Shown: positions 1 through 27,000 of the stretch, one piece after another
How positions within the stretch are numbered: position 1 is the stretch's first letter
Layout: every line of letters begins with the position of its first letter
From: Callorhinchus milii
Lineage: Eukaryota
Length of the DNA stretch: 64,000 nucleotides
Reading direction: 5' to 3'
NCBI RefSeq assembly: GCF_018977255.1
Contig: NW_024705000.1
Coordinates: forward strand, 1-64,000
Program-made: the position numbers

Positions 1-3000
1 GGTATAACCATCGTTCCCTGTAGAAACAGAAACGTTAGCCCAGGAGGCGACTGGAAAAACTTTACCTTCCGACATGAGAGGCGCTATATCATTGTAATGT
101 CATCCAAGAGCCACCTTTGGAATGGAGAACCCCATGATCTCTGTATCTCTGGACGTCTCGTGCGGCAATGAGTTTGGGACAATGTTTCCGAAGCGTTGGG
201 TTTCGTGGATGACAGCGTTGGTGAACGCCATTGTCTCCTGGTCCTCCAGAGCCGGATTTCTCTCCGTCCCAATCACTCGGTCAATCTCTTCCTGGACCTT
301 CTCTGCAGAGGAGAAGAAAATTGGCCAATGATTACACACTTGATCAATAGGGAAGTTGACAGTAGGGAGACACCCCATGTCCATCGCAATGGATTTATAA
401 AGATTGTACAGCACAGGAACAGGCCATTTGGCCCAACTAGTCCGTGCAAAGACTGGTCGCCTTTCTCGTCAGATGTGGGTCTCAAAGCACTGCACGGGAT
501 TTACTGTTGAGTGTAGTGACTGTGTGCTTGTGTGTGTGTTTGGGGGATTCTGGAGTTCCATTCCACATCCACACGTGTTGTGTAATCGGGGGGCATGAGC
601 CCCGACGTGTGTCCTTCGAGCAATGGGATCCCACCCGGTAACGCCACAGCCAGACGGGAATCCTTACCCTGGATATCGGGGAATAAGACCATGAAGAGCA
701 GCCCCCAACGGAGGGTGGTGGAGGTGGTCTCGGTACCGGCTCCGAAGAGATCCAGGGATGTGCTGAACAGGCTGGTCTCAGTGAAGCTCGTATTGGGAGT
801 CGCCTTCATCTGCAGGTGAACTCAAGACAGTCAGTGCCAGAAACAACTTTGTAAAGCAATCAGAATCACAATACAGTCAATTCCTGATAACTCGTCCCTC
901 CCAGTGGAAAAGTGCTCAGTGTCGAGCTATCAGGAGAAGCGAGGTATAGATTTATACAAGTTCAGCCATTATTTTAATATATAAATAAATGCATCCGGCA
1001 TTTTGGCATCACAATGACTTAAGTGGTAGTGATGACCAGTTATACCAGGGTCGGGTTATCAGGGGTTTACTGTAGAAATAATATTAATCCTTGTACCTGA
1101 CACAAAAGTGCCTTTTGCTTCAGGAAGACGTCTCAAAGCGCTTCACAGGATTTTACTGTAAAGTGTAGTGACTGTGTGTTTCTGTCGGTGAAACAACTGG
1201 TTGGAGTATTAGATTGTTGGGAAGCAGAGTATAAAGGATTTACTGAACACACCAGTGTTGAGGATTGAGAATCATTACAACAACAAGAACATCAACAACA
1301 ACAACATCTATCAAATTTTCCAGTCAGTGTTACCTTCTCACACTCCACTAAGAAGGCGTCAATGAAGTCTCTTGGTTCGTTGGGATCCCAAACTTCCTTG
1401 TGCTCAGCGACTATTTCCTGGAGAAACTCAACCAACTTCATACGGTTCTGAAAGATTCTGCGATGGGGCCCAGGGAGGCCGTCAATAAAGGGGAACATGT
1501 TCACCAACTGCAACAGATGGAAAGACAGGCAGATAGGCAGACAGACAGACAGACAGACAAACAGCGAGCCAGACATAAACAAACTGAGATGAATCGGGTG
1601 GTTGGTGAGTCAGGGAGGCAAAATAATAAGCCTTGCATTTGGTGTAGCACCTTATCACGTGGGAAGGACGTCTCAAAGCTCTTCGCAGGATATATTGTGA
1701 AGTGCAGGGACTGTGTATTTTGTGGGTGAAACGCAGCAGCACAACTGCACACAGCAATGTCCCACAACCACCCACGGAGTGACTGACTGATTTTATTTGG
1801 GGCATTATTGGCCAGGACACTGAGAAAGAGAGAAAAACTCCCTTCGCTTTTTCAATAGTGCCATCAGATCTTTAACATCCACCAGAACAGGTAGACAGAG
1901 CCGCGGTTTAATGTCTCTCATTGAAAGGATGACATTGCAGCATCATTCGTTCCGAAGAGGAGGCGAGGCAGAGAACAAGTGGTGACTGACTTTTTATTTC
2001 CGTGGCATTGACGGCCAGGAATACCAGGAGAGACAAACTTGTAGGGATTTAACTTCGTATACTATTGTTGTCCAATCGACTCTGCCTTACCTTAGCCCAA
2101 AATCCAGCCTCCAGCAACATGCTCTCATCAATTATCTCTAGTAAATGAAGGAGTTTTGTATCCTGGTAGTCAAAACGATCCCCAAAGATGAGGGAGCAGA
2201 TGATATTGGAGGTAGCGTTGTTTATTCTGAAATGTGGGTCAAAAGGGTGACCTAATAGAGGGAAATGGACAGCAATCAGCTATCACACCATCACAATTAT
2301 AATATAGGAACATGGGAACAGGAGGAGGCCAATCAGCCCCCTCCAGCCTGTTCTGCCATTCTATTAGATCATGGATTTAACTATGATTTGTACCTCAACT
2401 CCATATAATAATAATAATAATCCTTGCATTTGATATAGCGCTTTTCACGTCTTCTAGACGTTGCAAAGCGCTTCATAGAAGATACTGTAAAGTGAATTGA
2501 TATAGGAACATGGGAATAGGAGGAGGTCATTCAGCCCCTCGAGCCTGTTCCGCCATTCTTTCAGATCATGGCTGATCTGTACCTCAACTCCATTTACCCA
2601 TCTTTGCTCCACATAATCATAATAATAATTGTGTATGATATAGCGCCTTATCACTTATTCGAGACATCGCCCGAGCCGAACTCCGGAATTGGCTCCCGAG
2701 TTACATCCACCCGTAATTGGCAGCCAAGCCGCAGCCCCCGCCCTCCCCACCTTATGAATCGATTTTGCATCCCAATCCAGAGCCCTTTTGGGAAGGGCAC
2801 CACGCCTTCTCTCACGACAGGGAACGAGGAGGTGAATTCCCTGGTAATTTACTCACCAATCTCGGCTTCCAATTCGTTGTTTAAAAAGCTCGCCTCCTCC
2901 ACGATTCGCAACTCCAGAGATTTCTTCCCCAGCCCAAAGTTCTTCAGCGTGGAGAGAGCAAACCTCCTGTGATCTTGCCACCACTGGCCGTACTTTGCAA

Positions 3001-24000: not shown

Positions 24001-27000
24001 AATTCAACACACAACTACGTTAATCACAGGTCAGTGACAGGCTCTATCCTGTGTGACAGTCCAGGCTGTTAATAATGCAGAACACAGCGATGAACAGGAG
24101 CTCCGAGTTTATCTGAGTCGAACACAGAGCTGGAATGGCATTGGGCTGCGGGTGATCCCATATTTGGTGCGGGTGTAGCTGGGTTTGGGCTCGTTCTCCG
24201 GCAGGAAGAATGTGAATCGTTGGAGCAAGGAAGTGAAGAACAGGAAGAGTTCCATCTTCGCCAACTGCTCCCCCAGGCACACGCGAGGCCCTGCGGGGGG
24301 GAATAACACAGACAACAAATTATAACATATTATATATATTAAATTATATTATAAATTATAATAATCCTTGCATTCGATATAGTGCTTGATCATGTCTTCG
24401 AGATGTCTCACAGCACTTCACAGAATATATTGTAAAGTGTAGTGACTGAGTATTTTATGAGTGTAAACACTCCTGTGAATTGCACACAGCAGTGTCCCCC
24501 GAACAGTCATGGTGTAGTTTGAGTGAACCACAACCTTCTGACTCAAGAGGTGAGATCGCTACCAACTGAGCCGGGCTGGCATCTGAGCCGCCCAACACCT
24601 TGGGACATCCTCCCGATGTGAGAGGTGCATGTTGTTGTTATTATCAAAGCAACATAAAGCCGCCATGTTGTAGCTCCCGCTCTCGCTCTCGTGCGCTGTG
24701 TTACCTGCAGAGAAGGGGATGAAGGCTTCCGGCTTCACAAACCGCCCACTGTCGTTAAGGAAATGACCCGGATTAAACTCGTGCGGCTTCGCCCAAAATT
24801 TGGGATCGTAGAGGGCGGAGGAGAGGTTTGGTATAACCATCGTTCCCTGTGGAAACAGAAACGTTAGCCCAGGAGGTGACTGGAAAAACTTTACCTTCCG
24901 ACATGAGAGGCGCTATATCATTGTAATGTCACCCAGAGCCACCTTTGGAATGGAGAACCCCATGATCTCTGTATCTCTGGACGTCTCATGTGGCAATGAG
25001 TTTGGGACAATGCTTCCGAAGCGTTGGGTTTCGTGGATGACAGCGTTGGTGAATGCCATCGTCTTCTGGTTCCCCAGAGCCGGCTTCCTCTCCGTCCCGA
25101 TCACTTGGTCAATCTCTTCCTGGACCTTCTCTGCAGTGGGGAAGAAAATTGGCCACTGATTACACACTTTGTAGTTGACAGTAGGGAAACACCCCATGTC
25201 CATCGCATGGATTTAGAAAGACTGGAAACAGCACGGGAACAGAAAATAGAAAGAAATCCTTGCATTTCATACAGCGCTGGATCAGGTCATTGACATGTCT
25301 CAAAGTGCTTCACAGGATATACTGTAAAGTGGAGTGACTGGTGTATTATGTGGACGAAACGCGTCAGCCGATCGCCTTTCTCGACTCCCATACGTAGGGG
25401 ACCCCCCCCACCTAGTAACGCCACAGCCAGATGGGAATCCTTACCCTGGATATCGGGGAATAAGACCATGAAGAGCAGCCCCCAACGGAGGGTGGTGGAG
25501 GTGGTCTCGGTACCGGCTCCGAAGAGATCCAGGGTTGTGCTGTACAGGCTGGTCTCAGTGAAGCTCGTATTGGGAGTCGCCTTCATCTGCAGGTGAACTC
25601 AAGACAGTCAGTGCCAGAAACAACATTGTAAAGCAATCAGAATCACAATACAGTCAATTCCTGATAACTCACACAATATACAATCAGTTCACTTTACAGT
25701 ATATTAAAGTCTGGTACACTGTATGTTTTCGTAGGCGAAACAACTGGTGTGGGTGTATGTTTGGACTACAACGACAACAGCAACAACAAAATTACATTTG
25801 TAAATCGCCTTTCACGTCAGGAGGACATCCCAATTATATTTCACGTTGGGAGGACAGGCTAATACTCTCAAGTATTAGATTGTTGGGAAGCAGAGTGTAA
25901 AGGATTTACTTAACACAAAAGTGTTAGGGATTGAGAATCATTAGAACAACAACATCATCATCATCTAACAAATCTTCCGGTCAGTGTTACCTTCTCACAC
26001 TCCACTAAGAAGGCGTCAATGAAGTCTCTTGGCTCGTTGGGATCCCAAACTTCCTTGTGCTCAGCGACTATTTCCTGGATAAACTCAACCATCTTCTTTT
26101 GGTTCTCAAAGATTCTGCGATGGGGCCCAGGGAGGCCGTCAATAAAGGGGAACATGTTCACCAACTGCAACAGACGGACAGACAGTCAGTCAATCAGTCA
26201 GACAGACAGACAAACAGATAGACGACAGACAGACAAACAGACCAACTGGTGAAACCAACTCTATATTAGGTGGTTGGTGAGTCAGTGAGTGCCTGGAGGG
26301 CAGCGGTTTAAGAGTTTTAACCGTAGAGAGGTTAGCATATTAGAGATTTAACCTCTTATACTATTGTTGTCCAATCGACTCTGCCTTACCTTAGCCCAAA
26401 ATCCAGCCTCCAGCACCACGCTCTCATCAATTAACTCTAGTAGATGAAGGAATTTTTTATCCTGGTAGTCGAAACGATCCCCAAAAATGAGGGAGCAGAT
26501 GATATTGGAAGCAGCGTTGTTTATTCTGAAATGTGGGTCAAAAGGGTGACCTAATATAGGGAAATGGACAGCAATCAGCTATCACACCATCACAATTATA
26601 ATATAGGAACATGGGAACAGGAGGAGGCCATTCAGCCCCCTCCAACCTGTTCTGCCATTCTATTAGATCATGGCTGATTTGTACCTCAACTCCATATAAT
26701 AATAATAATAATCCTTGCATTTGATGCAGCGCCTTATCAAGTCTTTGAGACGTCTCAAAGCGCTTCACAGGATATACTGTAAAGAGAACTGACTGGGTAT
26801 TTTGTGGGCGAGATGTGGCAGTTAATTGCGCACAGCAGTGGGATTATGACCCCCGGAAAGCGATCCACCAATCAACTAACAACCGGGTTCCTACTTACTG
26901 CAAGGTGAACAGTAGGTGTGTGGACTAAGGAAACTTGCCTCTCCCAGAAATCGAACCCGGGTCCTCTCGCTTGCGAGGCGAGCGTACTAACCACTATGCT

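What the first reader, a model, noticed from the sequence alone, without database searches (positions are those of the whole stretch)
3000..25200. Copies are hybrid genes produced by two nested duplication periods (~6.7 kb and ~19 kb)
Seen: ~3000-6000 matches ~21900-24900 (ATG offset 19032; stop offset 18874). B has C-type exons 1-7 but an E-type exon 8 (FLNDSGRF vs FLDDSGRL), intron 8 and exon 9. D has an A-type upstream region and intron 1 but B/C-type exons 3-7. A has a D-type 5' end but E-type intron 3, exon 6 (MKATPN, DLFGAG, TLRW) and intron 6. Inference: exon-block shuffling by unequal crossover and gene conversion, analogous to human CYP2D6/2D7 hybrids.
Basis: partly seen in the sequence, partly recalled or inferred. 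Interest (0 to 1): 0.65.

Follow-up and report, generated by a model that had tools for sequence, protein, structure and literature searches.

The report
Recombinant CYP2D-like genes in elephant shark
Five neighbouring cytochrome P450 (detoxification enzyme) genes of the elephant shark are patchworks of one another, made by the same ordinary copy-and-swap processes known from the human CYP2D6 region.

Summary
Window 1-29,490 carries five tandem nine-exon P450 genes on the minus strand (order E, D, C, B, A; A is cut by the window start). All visible exons are open and all splice sites canonical. The species is Callorhinchus milii, not human.

Self-BLAST shows both periods. 5764-16596 matches 12466-23278 at 98.5% (offset 6702). 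2817-6290 matches 21730-25170 at 96.9-98.4% (offsets 18,868-19,032).

The nearest relative of a copy changes along the unit:
- D is A-like from upstream to mid exon 2, then B/C-like.
- B is C-like up to intron 7, then E-like.
- C matches B at the 5' end and D at the 3' end.
- A carries a 264-bp E-like tract around exon 6.

Max-chi-square tests gave 0/10,000 permutations for each triplet. AU topology tests and a PHI-type test all reject a single history.

Best reading: unequal crossover plus gene conversion in a xenobiotic-type P450 array. This is a known kind of event in a species where it seems undescribed.

Assembly error could not be tested with reads. Interest is low to moderate.

The parts
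1..4124 (-). Gene A (CYP2D-like), cut by the window start in exon 8. Exons: 4124-3915, 3348-3180, 3009-2857, 2251-2091, 1507-1334, 809-668, 302-115, 17-1 (partial).
   Evidence: exon lengths equal those of B. AG/GT at all visible borders and no in-frame stop. Exon peptides 1-7 are all contained in the public protein P0002.
5235..9759 (-). Gene B, complete, 9 exons: 9759-9550, 8859-8691, 8522-8370, 8144-7984, 7199-7026, 6870-6729, 6251-6064, 5966-5825, 5416-5235. Total 1521 nt.
   Evidence: Pfam PF00067 matched 8 of 9 exons in colinear order.
12030..16466 (-). Gene C, complete, 9 exons. It is the unmixed 'm type' copy.
   Evidence: All 9 of 9 exon peptides are contained in the NCBI protein P0001, 'cytochrome P450 2D15-like [Callorhinchus milii]'.
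18733..23156 (-). Gene D, complete, 9 exons. Its 5' part is nearest to A and the rest nearest to B/C.
24109..29490 (-). Gene E, complete, 9 exons. It is the most divergent copy, and its introns are mostly unalignable with A-D except intron 7.
   Evidence: Exon peptides 1, 2, 4 and 5 are contained in P0003. Exon 3 differs from P0003 by one residue.
2817..6290 (-). Junction block, copy 1: 3' end of B (exon 7 end to exon 9), short intergenic DNA, and 5' end of A (to exon 3).
   Evidence: three HSPs to 21730-25170 at 96.9%, 98.4% and 97.2%.
21730..25170 (-). Junction block, copy 2: 3' end of E, short intergenic DNA, and 5' end of D.
   Evidence: upstream A-D 14/946, intron 1 A-D 4/560, intron 8 B-E 8/408.
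5764..23278 (-). Zone of the 6.7-kb tandem repeat (B, C and D units with their intergenic DNA).
   Evidence: 5764-16596 vs 12466-23278, 98.5% over 10,848 columns, offset 6702.
21991..22192 (-). Switch zone of D from A-like to B/C-like (3' half of exon 2 into intron 2). It is patchy.
   Evidence: best breakpoint at D 22192..22188. 43/57 sites are A-like on the left and 11/506 on the right; 0/10,000 permutations. One search shows alternating AD|BC and BCD|A sites down to D 21991.
5876..5997 (-). Interval holding B's switch from C/D-like to E-like (end of intron 7 and start of exon 8).
   Evidence: 750/759 sites C-like on the left and 6/64 on the right; 0/10,000 permutations.
14569..14614 (-). 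Interval holding C's switch from B-like to D-like (intron 4).
   Evidence: 66/70 sites B-like on the left and 12/79 on the right; 0/10,000 permutations. Most of the signal comes from D's A-like head and B's E-like tail. Inside the body it rests mainly on exon 5.
630..893 (-). Short E-like tract in A (exon 6 plus 84 nt of intron 5 and 38 nt of intron 6). Partner in E: 25407-25670.
   Evidence: 97.7% over 264 columns, against 87.2% for A vs B/C/D over the same exon; exon 6 A-E 2/142, A-B 18/142.
20512..20547 (-). Exon 5 patch in D. The same patch lies in C at 13824-13859 (my own offset from the exon start). At 5 sites within 36 nt, C and D share one state while A, B and E share the other.
9890..11170 (-). 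Extra repeat-rich DNA upstream of B (9890-10078 and 10232-11170). The same DNA lies upstream of C (16597-16785 and 16939-17873). It is absent upstream of A and D.
   Evidence: The B and C copies are 99.6% identical over 1361 nt.

Best explanation
The region is a real tandem array of five intact-looking CYP2D-like cytochrome P450 genes of the elephant shark. Its members have repeatedly exchanged sequence by non-allelic homologous recombination.

Shown: the copies are mosaics, and the nearest relative of D, B, C and A changes along the unit.

Inferred, as the shortest history I could find:
1. An unequal crossover between an m-type gene and E, in the nearly identical stretch from the end of exon 7 through intron 7 to exon 8. 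It produced B (m-type head and body with an E-type tail). It also duplicated the block 'E-type tail, short intergenic DNA, A-type head'. That block now sits at both the E/D and B/A junctions, about 1-2% diverged.
2. The body of D was then overwritten with m-type sequence from mid exon 2 onward (about 0.5% diverged from B and C).
3. An unequal crossover between B and D in intron 4 made C and gave the 6.7-kb period (0.1-0.5% diverged).

Short conversion tracts came on top of these events: exon 6 of A from an E-type donor, patches in exons 2, 4 and 5, and patches in the intron 8 SINE.

The products are probably xenobiotic-metabolising enzymes that differ mainly in the regions recalled as substrate-recognition sites.
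For: Gene models:
- 5 copies, with the same nine exon lengths in each.
- 38 of 38 acceptors are AG and 39 of 39 donors are GT.
- There is no in-frame stop in 43 complete exons.
- Pfam p450 matched 8 of 9 exons colinearly.

Two periods are present.

Informative columns (301 in all):
- From upstream to intron 2, 48 columns group A with D apart from B and C, against 12 BCD|AE.
- From intron 3 to intron 6, 169 of 184 are BCD|AE.
- From exon 8 to exon 9, 50 of 50 are BE|CD.

Tests:
- Max-chi-square: 0/10,000 permutations for each of 4 triplets.
- AU tests: in the 5' segment every topology without (B,C) is rejected, while two of the five that contain it are also marginal (p-AU 0.038-0.039); the 3' segment accepts only (B,E),(C,D).
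- PHI-type test: 0/500 in 3 of 3 taxon sets.

The hybrids are separate loci, not re-used reads:
- D's head differs from A's at 14/946, 3/210 and 4/560 sites.
- B's tail differs from E's at 8/408 and 2/182 sites.
- D lacks most of A 5084-4935: only 24 of those 150 bases align.
- Among B, C and D, private sites number 78 (D), 71 (B) and 14 (C) in 5344 columns.

The divergence levels are ordered as the three-step model needs.

The public NCBI proteins P0001 and P0002 reproduce the exon peptides of C (9/9) and A (7/7).
Against: - No reads, no second assembly and no second individual could be examined.
- C is almost a perfect B-5'/D-3' composite, with only 14 private sites in 5344 columns. The third 6.7-kb unit is therefore the least secure part.
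- In the 5' segment the AU test does not resolve an (A,D) clade: (A,E),D,(B,C) has p 0.913 and (A,D),E,(B,C) has p 0.249. E aligns poorly there. D's 'A-type head' rests on distances and the triplet test, not on a rooted clade.
- In intron 3 to intron 6 the order among B, C and D is not resolved (p-AU 0.906, 0.096, 0.095).
- Step 2 needs a conversion tract of about 3.4 kb, which is long.
- Equally, A rather than D may be the copy whose body was replaced. Direction is undetermined.
- Counts in introns 3-6 that involve A and E include alignment noise.
Confidence: 0.8

Rival explanations
1. Assembly artefact. One or more hybrid junctions, or the whole third 6.7-kb unit (C), were created by the assembler from reads of fewer real copies or from two haplotypes.
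For: - B and C have no difference over about 2.2 kb (C 17332-15133) and only 4/2266 differences in the upstream DNA.
- C has only 14 private sites in 5344 columns.
- The public records place these proteins on one contig of 88,297 bp. The public model of A stops after exon 7. The array may therefore lie at a contig end.
- The UniRef protein P0003 differs from the window's E by one residue.
Against: - D's head and B's tail are 0.7-2% diverged from their nearest relatives and carry their own indels, so they are distinct loci.
- The discriminating sites flanking the D and B switches lie 4 bp and 121 bp apart, so a single read of a few hundred bases spans each junction.
- D's exon 2 has private substitutions inside the switch zone.
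- Assemblers usually collapse near-identical tandem repeats rather than add copies (my own knowledge, not a call).
- The window has no N.
Confidence: 0.1
2. Gene conversion only. Five old copies of stable number were partly homogenised by conversion tracts, with no recent unequal crossover or change in copy number.
For: - The patterns in exon 2, exon 5, exon 6 and the intron 8 SINE are patchy and short.
- Intron 7 is nearly identical in all five copies, at most 3 differences in 96-97 nt.
- No junction signature distinguishes the two processes.
Against: - Similarity runs without a break through genes and intergenic DNA for 10.8 kb at 98.5%.
- It includes 1.1 kb of extra repeat-rich DNA shared only by the B and C upstream regions (99.6%).
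- It also includes indels shared by the two short intergenic regions.
- Conversion tracts of that length are unusual (my own knowledge).
Confidence: 0.08
3. No exchange at all. The mosaic reflects different substitution rates or selection along the gene in copies that share one duplication history.
For: - Exons are more alike than introns in all comparisons.
- Amino-acid differences cluster in a few stretches.
Against: - Adjacent introns differ far too much: A-D is 4/560 in intron 1 but 80/225 in intron 3, while B-D is 30/683 and 3/225 in the same two introns. The relative order of the distances reverses.
- Topologies conflict, with p-AU down to 2.5e-183.
Confidence: 0.02

Closest known systems
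Human CYP2D6/CYP2D7 hybrid genes and CYP2D6 copy-number variants
   Same: - Tandem, same-strand paralogues of a nine-exon CYP2D-type gene.
- Hybrid copies with the 5' part of one paralogue and the 3' part of another.
- Co-duplicated intergenic DNA.
- Unequal crossover and conversion are the accepted causes. I read passages of PMC4419802, which states that unequal crossover often causes CYP2D6 copy-number variation and cites papers on chimeric CYP2D7/2D6 genes.
   Different: - Here all five copies, hybrids included, keep open exons and canonical splice sites, whereas CYP2D7 is a pseudogene (abstract of PMC4419802).
- The human cases are polymorphic alleles. Polymorphism could not be tested here.
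- The species is a chimaera, and orthology to tetrapod CYP2D is not established.
- By its title and abstract, PMC4419802 reports no frequent or long-tract conversion in primate CYP2D. Long blocks are exchanged here.
Birth-and-death evolution of xenobiotic-type vertebrate P450 clusters (Thomas 2007, seen only as a reference in PMC4419802; Yasukochi and Satta 2011, cited there in the text)
   Same: - Lineage-specific tandem expansion of a CYP2 subfamily.
- Very recent duplicates.
- Elevated dN/dS between recent copies: 0.37-0.91 for the eight pairs computed.
   Different: This is a general pattern, not a specific system. The window adds a detailed case in a cartilaginous fish.
Other P450 chimeras made by unequal crossover (CYP21A2/CYP21A1P, CYP11B1/CYP11B2, CYP2A6/CYP2A7), recalled from memory, no call
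   Same: Neighbouring paralogues with high identity recombine out of register and give hybrid genes.
   Different: Those are disease or pharmacogenetic alleles in humans. Here the hybrids are part of a reference sequence and look functional.

Membership tests
Cytochrome P450 superfamily (Pfam PF00067) | Match to the P450 profile over the whole domain | tested here: met
   gene B searched exon by exon. 8 of 9 exons were reported at E <= 0.01 (9.5e-05 to 8.7e-19), at profile positions 29-77, 88-131, 139-184, 192-247, 252-296, 298-359, 360-406 and 408-462 of 462, in order; 7 of them reach Pfam's curated cut-off of 22.8 bits and exon 3 (21.8 bits) falls just below it. Exon 1 (membrane anchor) gave no hit.
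Cytochrome P450 superfamily (Pfam PF00067) | Haem-binding cysteine motif, ExxR of the K helix, and the I-helix (A/G)GxETT motif (motif definitions recalled) | tested here: met
   The exon 6 peptides hold AGTETT in 5 of 5 copies. Exon 7 holds ETQR in 5 of 5. Exon 8 ends ...PFSA and exon 9 starts PRVCLGE in 4 of 4 copies that reach these exons.
CYP2 family gene structure | Nine coding exons with conserved positions (recalled as typical of CYP2 genes) | tested here: met
   nine exons of 210, 169, 153, 161, 174, 142, 188, 142 and 182 nt in B, C, D and E. The NCBI model P0001 contains all nine exon peptides of C.
CYP2D subfamily | Nearest solved or named relatives are CYP2D | tested here: inconclusive
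   Nine PDB searches, one per exon of B. CYP2D6 is the best hit for 7 exons (2, 3, 4, 6, 7, 8, 9), and in exon 4 the margin is only 36.1 vs 35.6 bits. Exon 5's best hit is CYP2E1 (47.1 bits), with CYP2D6 at 29.0 bits, last of the 36 listed. Exon 1 gave no hit. NCBI's names are '2D15-like' for C and '2J6-like' for the truncated A.
CYP2D subfamily | More than 55% amino-acid identity over the full length (nomenclature rule, recalled) | not tested
   The joined protein was deliberately not built or searched. My own counts from the printed alignments to human CYP2D6 give about 39/62 for exon 7, 30/55 for exon 9 and 25/48 for exon 2.
CYP2D subfamily | Conserved neighbours of the tetrapod CYP2D locus (TCF20, NDUFA6; recalled) | tested here: inconclusive
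   Only one flank is visible. It holds an intronless EB1/MAPRE-like ORF (30941-31906) and an RHBDD2 exon (47437-47925), not the recalled tetrapod neighbours. In Heterodontus francisci the CYP2D17-like and RHBDD2 proteins are listed on a contig of the same length, 65,175,702 bp.
Hybrid genes made by non-allelic homologous recombination (CYP2D6/2D7 type) | Tandem direct paralogues, and a copy whose nearest relative switches once in a stretch of shared homology | tested here: met
   D, B and C each show one dominant switch (0/10,000 permutations); conflicting topologies on either side.
Hybrid genes made by non-allelic homologous recombination (CYP2D6/2D7 type) | Flanking intergenic DNA duplicated together with the gene parts (change in copy number) | tested here: met
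   a 10.8-kb alignment at offset 6702 and a 3.4-kb junction block at offset about 19 kb. Both run through intergenic DNA.
Hybrid genes made by non-allelic homologous recombination (CYP2D6/2D7 type) | Junctions confirmed on single molecules, and copy number variable among individuals | not testable with these tools
   No reads or other individuals were available. The only open contig collection holds bacteria and archaea.

The most novel reading that the evidence does not exclude
The array works as a standing cassette-shuffling system. Two conserved hinge stretches, exon 2 and the block from the end of exon 7 through intron 7 to exon 8, would let unequal crossover and conversion recombine blocks that carry different substrate-recognition regions. 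Every product keeps an open frame. The cluster would then be copy-number polymorphic and under diversifying selection in elephant shark populations, in a genome otherwise described as very slowly evolving.
Probability: 0.15. Interest if true: 0.5.

Novelty: new member of a known kind. Interest (0 to 1): 0.3.

Why it matters
It gives a clean, fully resolved example of how a xenobiotic-type P450 cluster grows and diversifies in a cartilaginous fish. At least three layers of exchange are visible, about 1-2%, 0.5% and 0.1-0.5% diverged, and all products stay intact.

It shows that the recombination behaviour known from the human CYP2D6 locus is not special to mammals.

For annotators it is a warning. 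Per-gene trees of these copies are meaningless, copy number may be mis-assembled, and names such as '2D15-like' and '2J6-like' for neighbouring near-identical genes mislead.

It does not open a new question or reveal a new mechanism.

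Tried and rejected
- A sixth copy: a stray LNGY motif at 37245 suggested one. A local tblastn with the public protein P0001 gave 38 HSPs, all between 115 and 29,511, and none beyond. Rejected.
- Rooted clade for A with D in the 5' segment: not obtained, because E is nearly unalignable there (branch length 0.88).
- A one-step origin of the 19-kb period as a simple E x A crossover: rejected on paper, because it leaves the m-type DNA between the two junction blocks unexplained.
- The 1.1 kb of extra DNA upstream of B and C as a clean insertion: not settled. 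A and D keep an internal 153-158-nt piece of it at only 88-89% identity, so deletion in the short form is equally possible.
- Rfam and tRNA scans: only two tRNA-like SINE heads, and nothing that explains the conservation of intron 7.
- Positive selection: dN/dS was 0.37-0.91, below 1, so it is not shown.
- Literature: 'elephant shark' with 'CYP2D' gave 0 papers. 'CYP2D' with 'cartilaginous fish' gave 2 papers, both unrelated by title and abstract. 'Callorhinchus', 'cytochrome P450', 'CYP2' and 'tandem' gave 5 papers, 4 listed, none on this cluster by title and abstract. 'Callorhinchus milii' with 'CYP2' gave 27 papers, 20 listed, none on this cluster by title and abstract. Passages of PMC6539745 and PMC3964593 hold nothing on it.

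Full report
**What is there.** The window has no N.
- Its first 29.5 kb hold five tandem copies of one gene on the minus strand. In the direction of transcription the order is E (29490-24109), D (23156-18733), C (16466-12030), B (9759-5235) and A (4124-1, cut in exon 8 by the window start).
- Each complete copy has nine exons of 210, 169, 153, 161, 174, 142, 188, 142 and 182 nt.
- 38 of 38 acceptors are AG and 39 of 39 donors are GT. None of the 43 complete exons has an in-frame stop.
- Searched exon by exon, 8 of 9 exons of B were reported against Pfam PF00067 at E <= 0.01, in colinear order; 7 of them reach the curated cut-off and exon 3 falls just below it.
- An exon 1 search found 'cytochrome P450 2D15-like [Callorhinchus milii]' at 100% identity.
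- That protein contains all nine exon peptides of C. A second public protein contains exons 1-7 of A.
- I therefore take the window for elephant shark, not human. The exons are only about 52-63% identical to human CYP2D6 in the printed alignments.
- All searches with the window's genes were made exon by exon. The joined coding sequence or protein was not built, searched, folded or used for a tree.
- Consequently no full-length identity, no subfamily phylogeny and no structure model are offered.

**The observation.** Self-BLAST confirms both periods.
- 5764-16596 aligns to 12466-23278 at 98.5% over 10,848 columns, offset 6702.
- 2817-6290 aligns to 21730-25170 in three pieces of 96.9%, 98.4% and 97.2%, offsets 18,868-19,032.
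- Differences per segment reproduce each statement. Exon 8 is B-E 0/142 vs B-C 2/142. Intron 8 is B-E 8/408 vs B-C 56/312. Intron 1 is A-D 4/560 vs A-B 26/566 and B-D 30/683. Exon 6 is A-E 2/142 vs A-B 18/142.
- Three corrections apply:
  - B's exon 5 is not C-type: 7/174 against C, and at five sites within 36 nt C and D share one state while A, B and E share the other.
  - D changes partner inside exon 2, in a patchy zone (D 22192-21991), not at an exon border.
  - A's likeness to E in introns 3 and 6 is partial and about 91%. Only exon 6 with short flanks (630-893 vs 25407-25670, 97.7%) and about 150 nt at the intron 3/exon 4 border (97.2%) look recent.

**More than chance?** Of 301 informative alignment columns:
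- 48 group A with D apart from B and C between the upstream region and intron 2, against 12 BCD|AE.
- 169 of 184 are BCD|AE from intron 3 to intron 6.
- 50 of 50 are BE|CD from exon 8 to exon 9.

Single-breakpoint max-chi-square tests gave 0 of 10,000 permutations in each of four cases:

| Copy | Parents compared | Left of switch | Right of switch |
|---|---|---|---|
| D | A vs C | 43/57 A-like | 11/506 A-like |
| B | C vs E | 750/759 C-like | 6/64 C-like |
| C | B vs D | 66/70 B-like | 12/79 B-like |
| A | D vs E | 355/364 D-like | 107/290 D-like |

- Likelihood tests over all topologies: in the segment from upstream to exon 2a every tree without (B,C) is rejected, though two of the five trees that contain it are also marginal (p-AU 0.038-0.039). 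From exon 8 to exon 9 only (B,E),(C,D) is kept, and (B,C),(D,E) is rejected at p-AU 2.5e-183. From intron 3 to intron 6, (A,E)|(B,C,D) is required.
- A PHI-type statistic was lower than all 500 permutations in three taxon sets.

Caveats:
- E is almost unalignable outside the exons in the 5' segment, so an (A,D) clade is not resolved there (p-AU 0.249, against 0.913 for the best tree).
- The order among B, C and D in the middle segment is not resolved.
- Intron columns involving A and E contain alignment noise.

**Anatomy and most likely history.** I call the block from upstream DNA through intron 1 the head, exons 2-7 the body, and exons 8-9 the tail.

| Gene | Head | Body | Tail |
|---|---|---|---|
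| E | e | e | T1 |
| D | a | m | T2 |
| C | m | m | T2 |
| B | m | m | T1 |
| A | a | its own | outside the window |

- A's body is nearer to E than to m.
- The E/D and B/A junctions share the block T1, short intergenic DNA and a-type head.
- The D/C and C/B junctions share T2, long intergenic DNA and m-type head. The long form carries 1.1 kb of extra repeat-rich DNA.

The divergences fall into layers:
- The junction blocks are 0.7-2% diverged.
- D's body against B and C is about 0.5%.
- C against B at the 5' end is about 0.1% (4/2266 upstream, 0 differences in exons 1-3 and introns 1-2).
- C against D at the 3' end is about 0.5%.

The shortest history I found, which is inference, has three steps:
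1. An unequal crossover between an m-type gene and E in the stretch from the end of exon 7 through intron 7 to exon 8. All five copies are nearly identical there (intron 7 has at most 3 differences in 96-97 nt). This made B and duplicated the junction block.
2. D's body was overwritten by m-type sequence from mid exon 2 onward.
3. An unequal crossover between B and D in intron 4 (C 14614-14569) made C and gave the 6.7-kb period.

Short tracts were added on top:
- Exon 6 of A.
- The exon 5 patch.
- A private four-nucleotide cluster in exon 4 of D.
- Patches in the tRNA-derived SINE of intron 8, where C-D reach 15/301 differences.

Direction cannot be fixed without an outgroup. A, rather than D, may be the copy whose body was replaced.

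**Function.**
- The exon peptides keep the I-helix, ExxR and haem-cysteine motifs (the motif definitions are recalled).
- dN/dS between copies is 0.37-0.91, so positive selection is not shown.
- Amino-acid differences cluster at the end of exon 2, at the end of exon 4 with the start of exon 5, and in exon 6. I recall these as substrate-recognition sites 1-4 of CYP2 enzymes. This mapping was not tested.

**Rivals.**
- Assembly error is the main one. The D and B junctions are each bracketed by discriminating sites 4 and 121 bp apart. The hybrid parts are 0.7-2% diverged from their nearest relatives and have their own indels. They are therefore distinct loci joined within read length.
- C, with 14 private sites in 5344 columns, is the weakest unit.
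No second copy of this locus was compared.
- Conversion alone, without any change in copy number, is made unlikely by the 10.8-kb uninterrupted alignment through intergenic DNA.
- Rate variation alone is excluded by the reversed order of distances in adjacent introns.

**Comparison with what is known.**
- The system works like the human CYP2D6/CYP2D7 region. PMC4419802 (title, abstract and passages read) states that unequal crossover often causes copy-number variation there, and it cites chimeric 2D7/2D6 genes.
- Subfamily membership in CYP2D is only partly supported. CYP2D6 is the best solved-structure hit for 7 exons. Exon 5's best hit is CYP2E1, with CYP2D6 last of 36. Exon 1 has no hit.
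- The visible flank holds an EB1/MAPRE-like intronless ORF and RHBDD2, not the tetrapod CYP2D neighbours I recall.
- Four searches found no paper on this cluster (titles and abstracts only for the listed papers). Supplementary files were not consulted and could hold gene lists.

**Verdict.** This is a real and statistically secure recombination mosaic. It is a new example of a well-known process, with modest interest.

Noticed in passing
window 30941-31906 (-): A single open frame of 321 codons (stop to stop) with a calponin-homology domain and an EB1 C-terminal motif (Pfam E 2.4e-13 and 1.1e-15). It lies 1.45 kb upstream of gene E. An intronless EB1/MAPRE-like gene is probably a retrocopy with an intact frame.
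   Followed up: partly
window 47437-47925 (-), with G-rich DNA at 48227-48689: An exon of rhomboid domain-containing protein 2 (98% identical to the C. milii RHBDD2 protein, listed on a contig of the same length). Next to it is a G-rich array with periods 21 and 144 and a 241-nt run that is mostly G, in a region of 61% G+C. RHBDD2 is not a neighbour of CYP2D in tetrapods as far as I recall.
   Followed up: partly
intron 7 of all five copies (e.g. B 6063-5967, E 24942-24847): Intron 7 (96-97 nt) differs at no more than 3 positions between any two copies, E included. Most other introns of E are largely unalignable with A-D. It may be a conversion hot spot or a constrained element. Rfam found nothing there.
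   Followed up: partly
exon 5 of B (7199-7026): Against solved structures this exon is closest to CYP2E1 (47.1 bits), and CYP2D6 is last of 36 hits (29.0 bits). Seven other exons are closest to CYP2D6. The F-G region is not 2D-like.
   Followed up: no
B 9789 and C 16496 (-): B and C have an in-frame ATG 30 nt upstream of the shared start, and NCBI's model P0001 uses it. In the tblastn, A, D and E align only from residue 4 of that model, so they seem to lack this ATG.
   Followed up: no
E exon 3 (27803-27651): The UniRef protein A0A4W3JDZ5 matches E in exons 1, 2, 4 and 5 but has K where the window has N in exon 3. This could be another assembly, an allele, or a further E-like copy elsewhere.
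   Followed up: no
intron 8 of B, C, D and E; also 26936-27009 (-) and 50781-50843 (+): tRNA-derived SINE copies. The one in intron 8 comes in two forms, B/E vs C/D, about 18% apart. C and D differ there at 15/301 although they are about 0.5% apart elsewhere, and at several of those sites D shares the B/E state.
   Followed up: partly
window 32353-32733: A 41-nt tandem repeat, 9.3 copies at 95% match, between the EB1-like ORF and the rest of the flank.
   Followed up: no
D exon 4 (21405-21401): Four substitutions private to D plus one three-state site (A, D and B/C each differ) within six nucleotides change two adjacent residues (EA to SD). This could be a multi-nucleotide change or a micro-conversion from a donor not in the window.
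   Followed up: no
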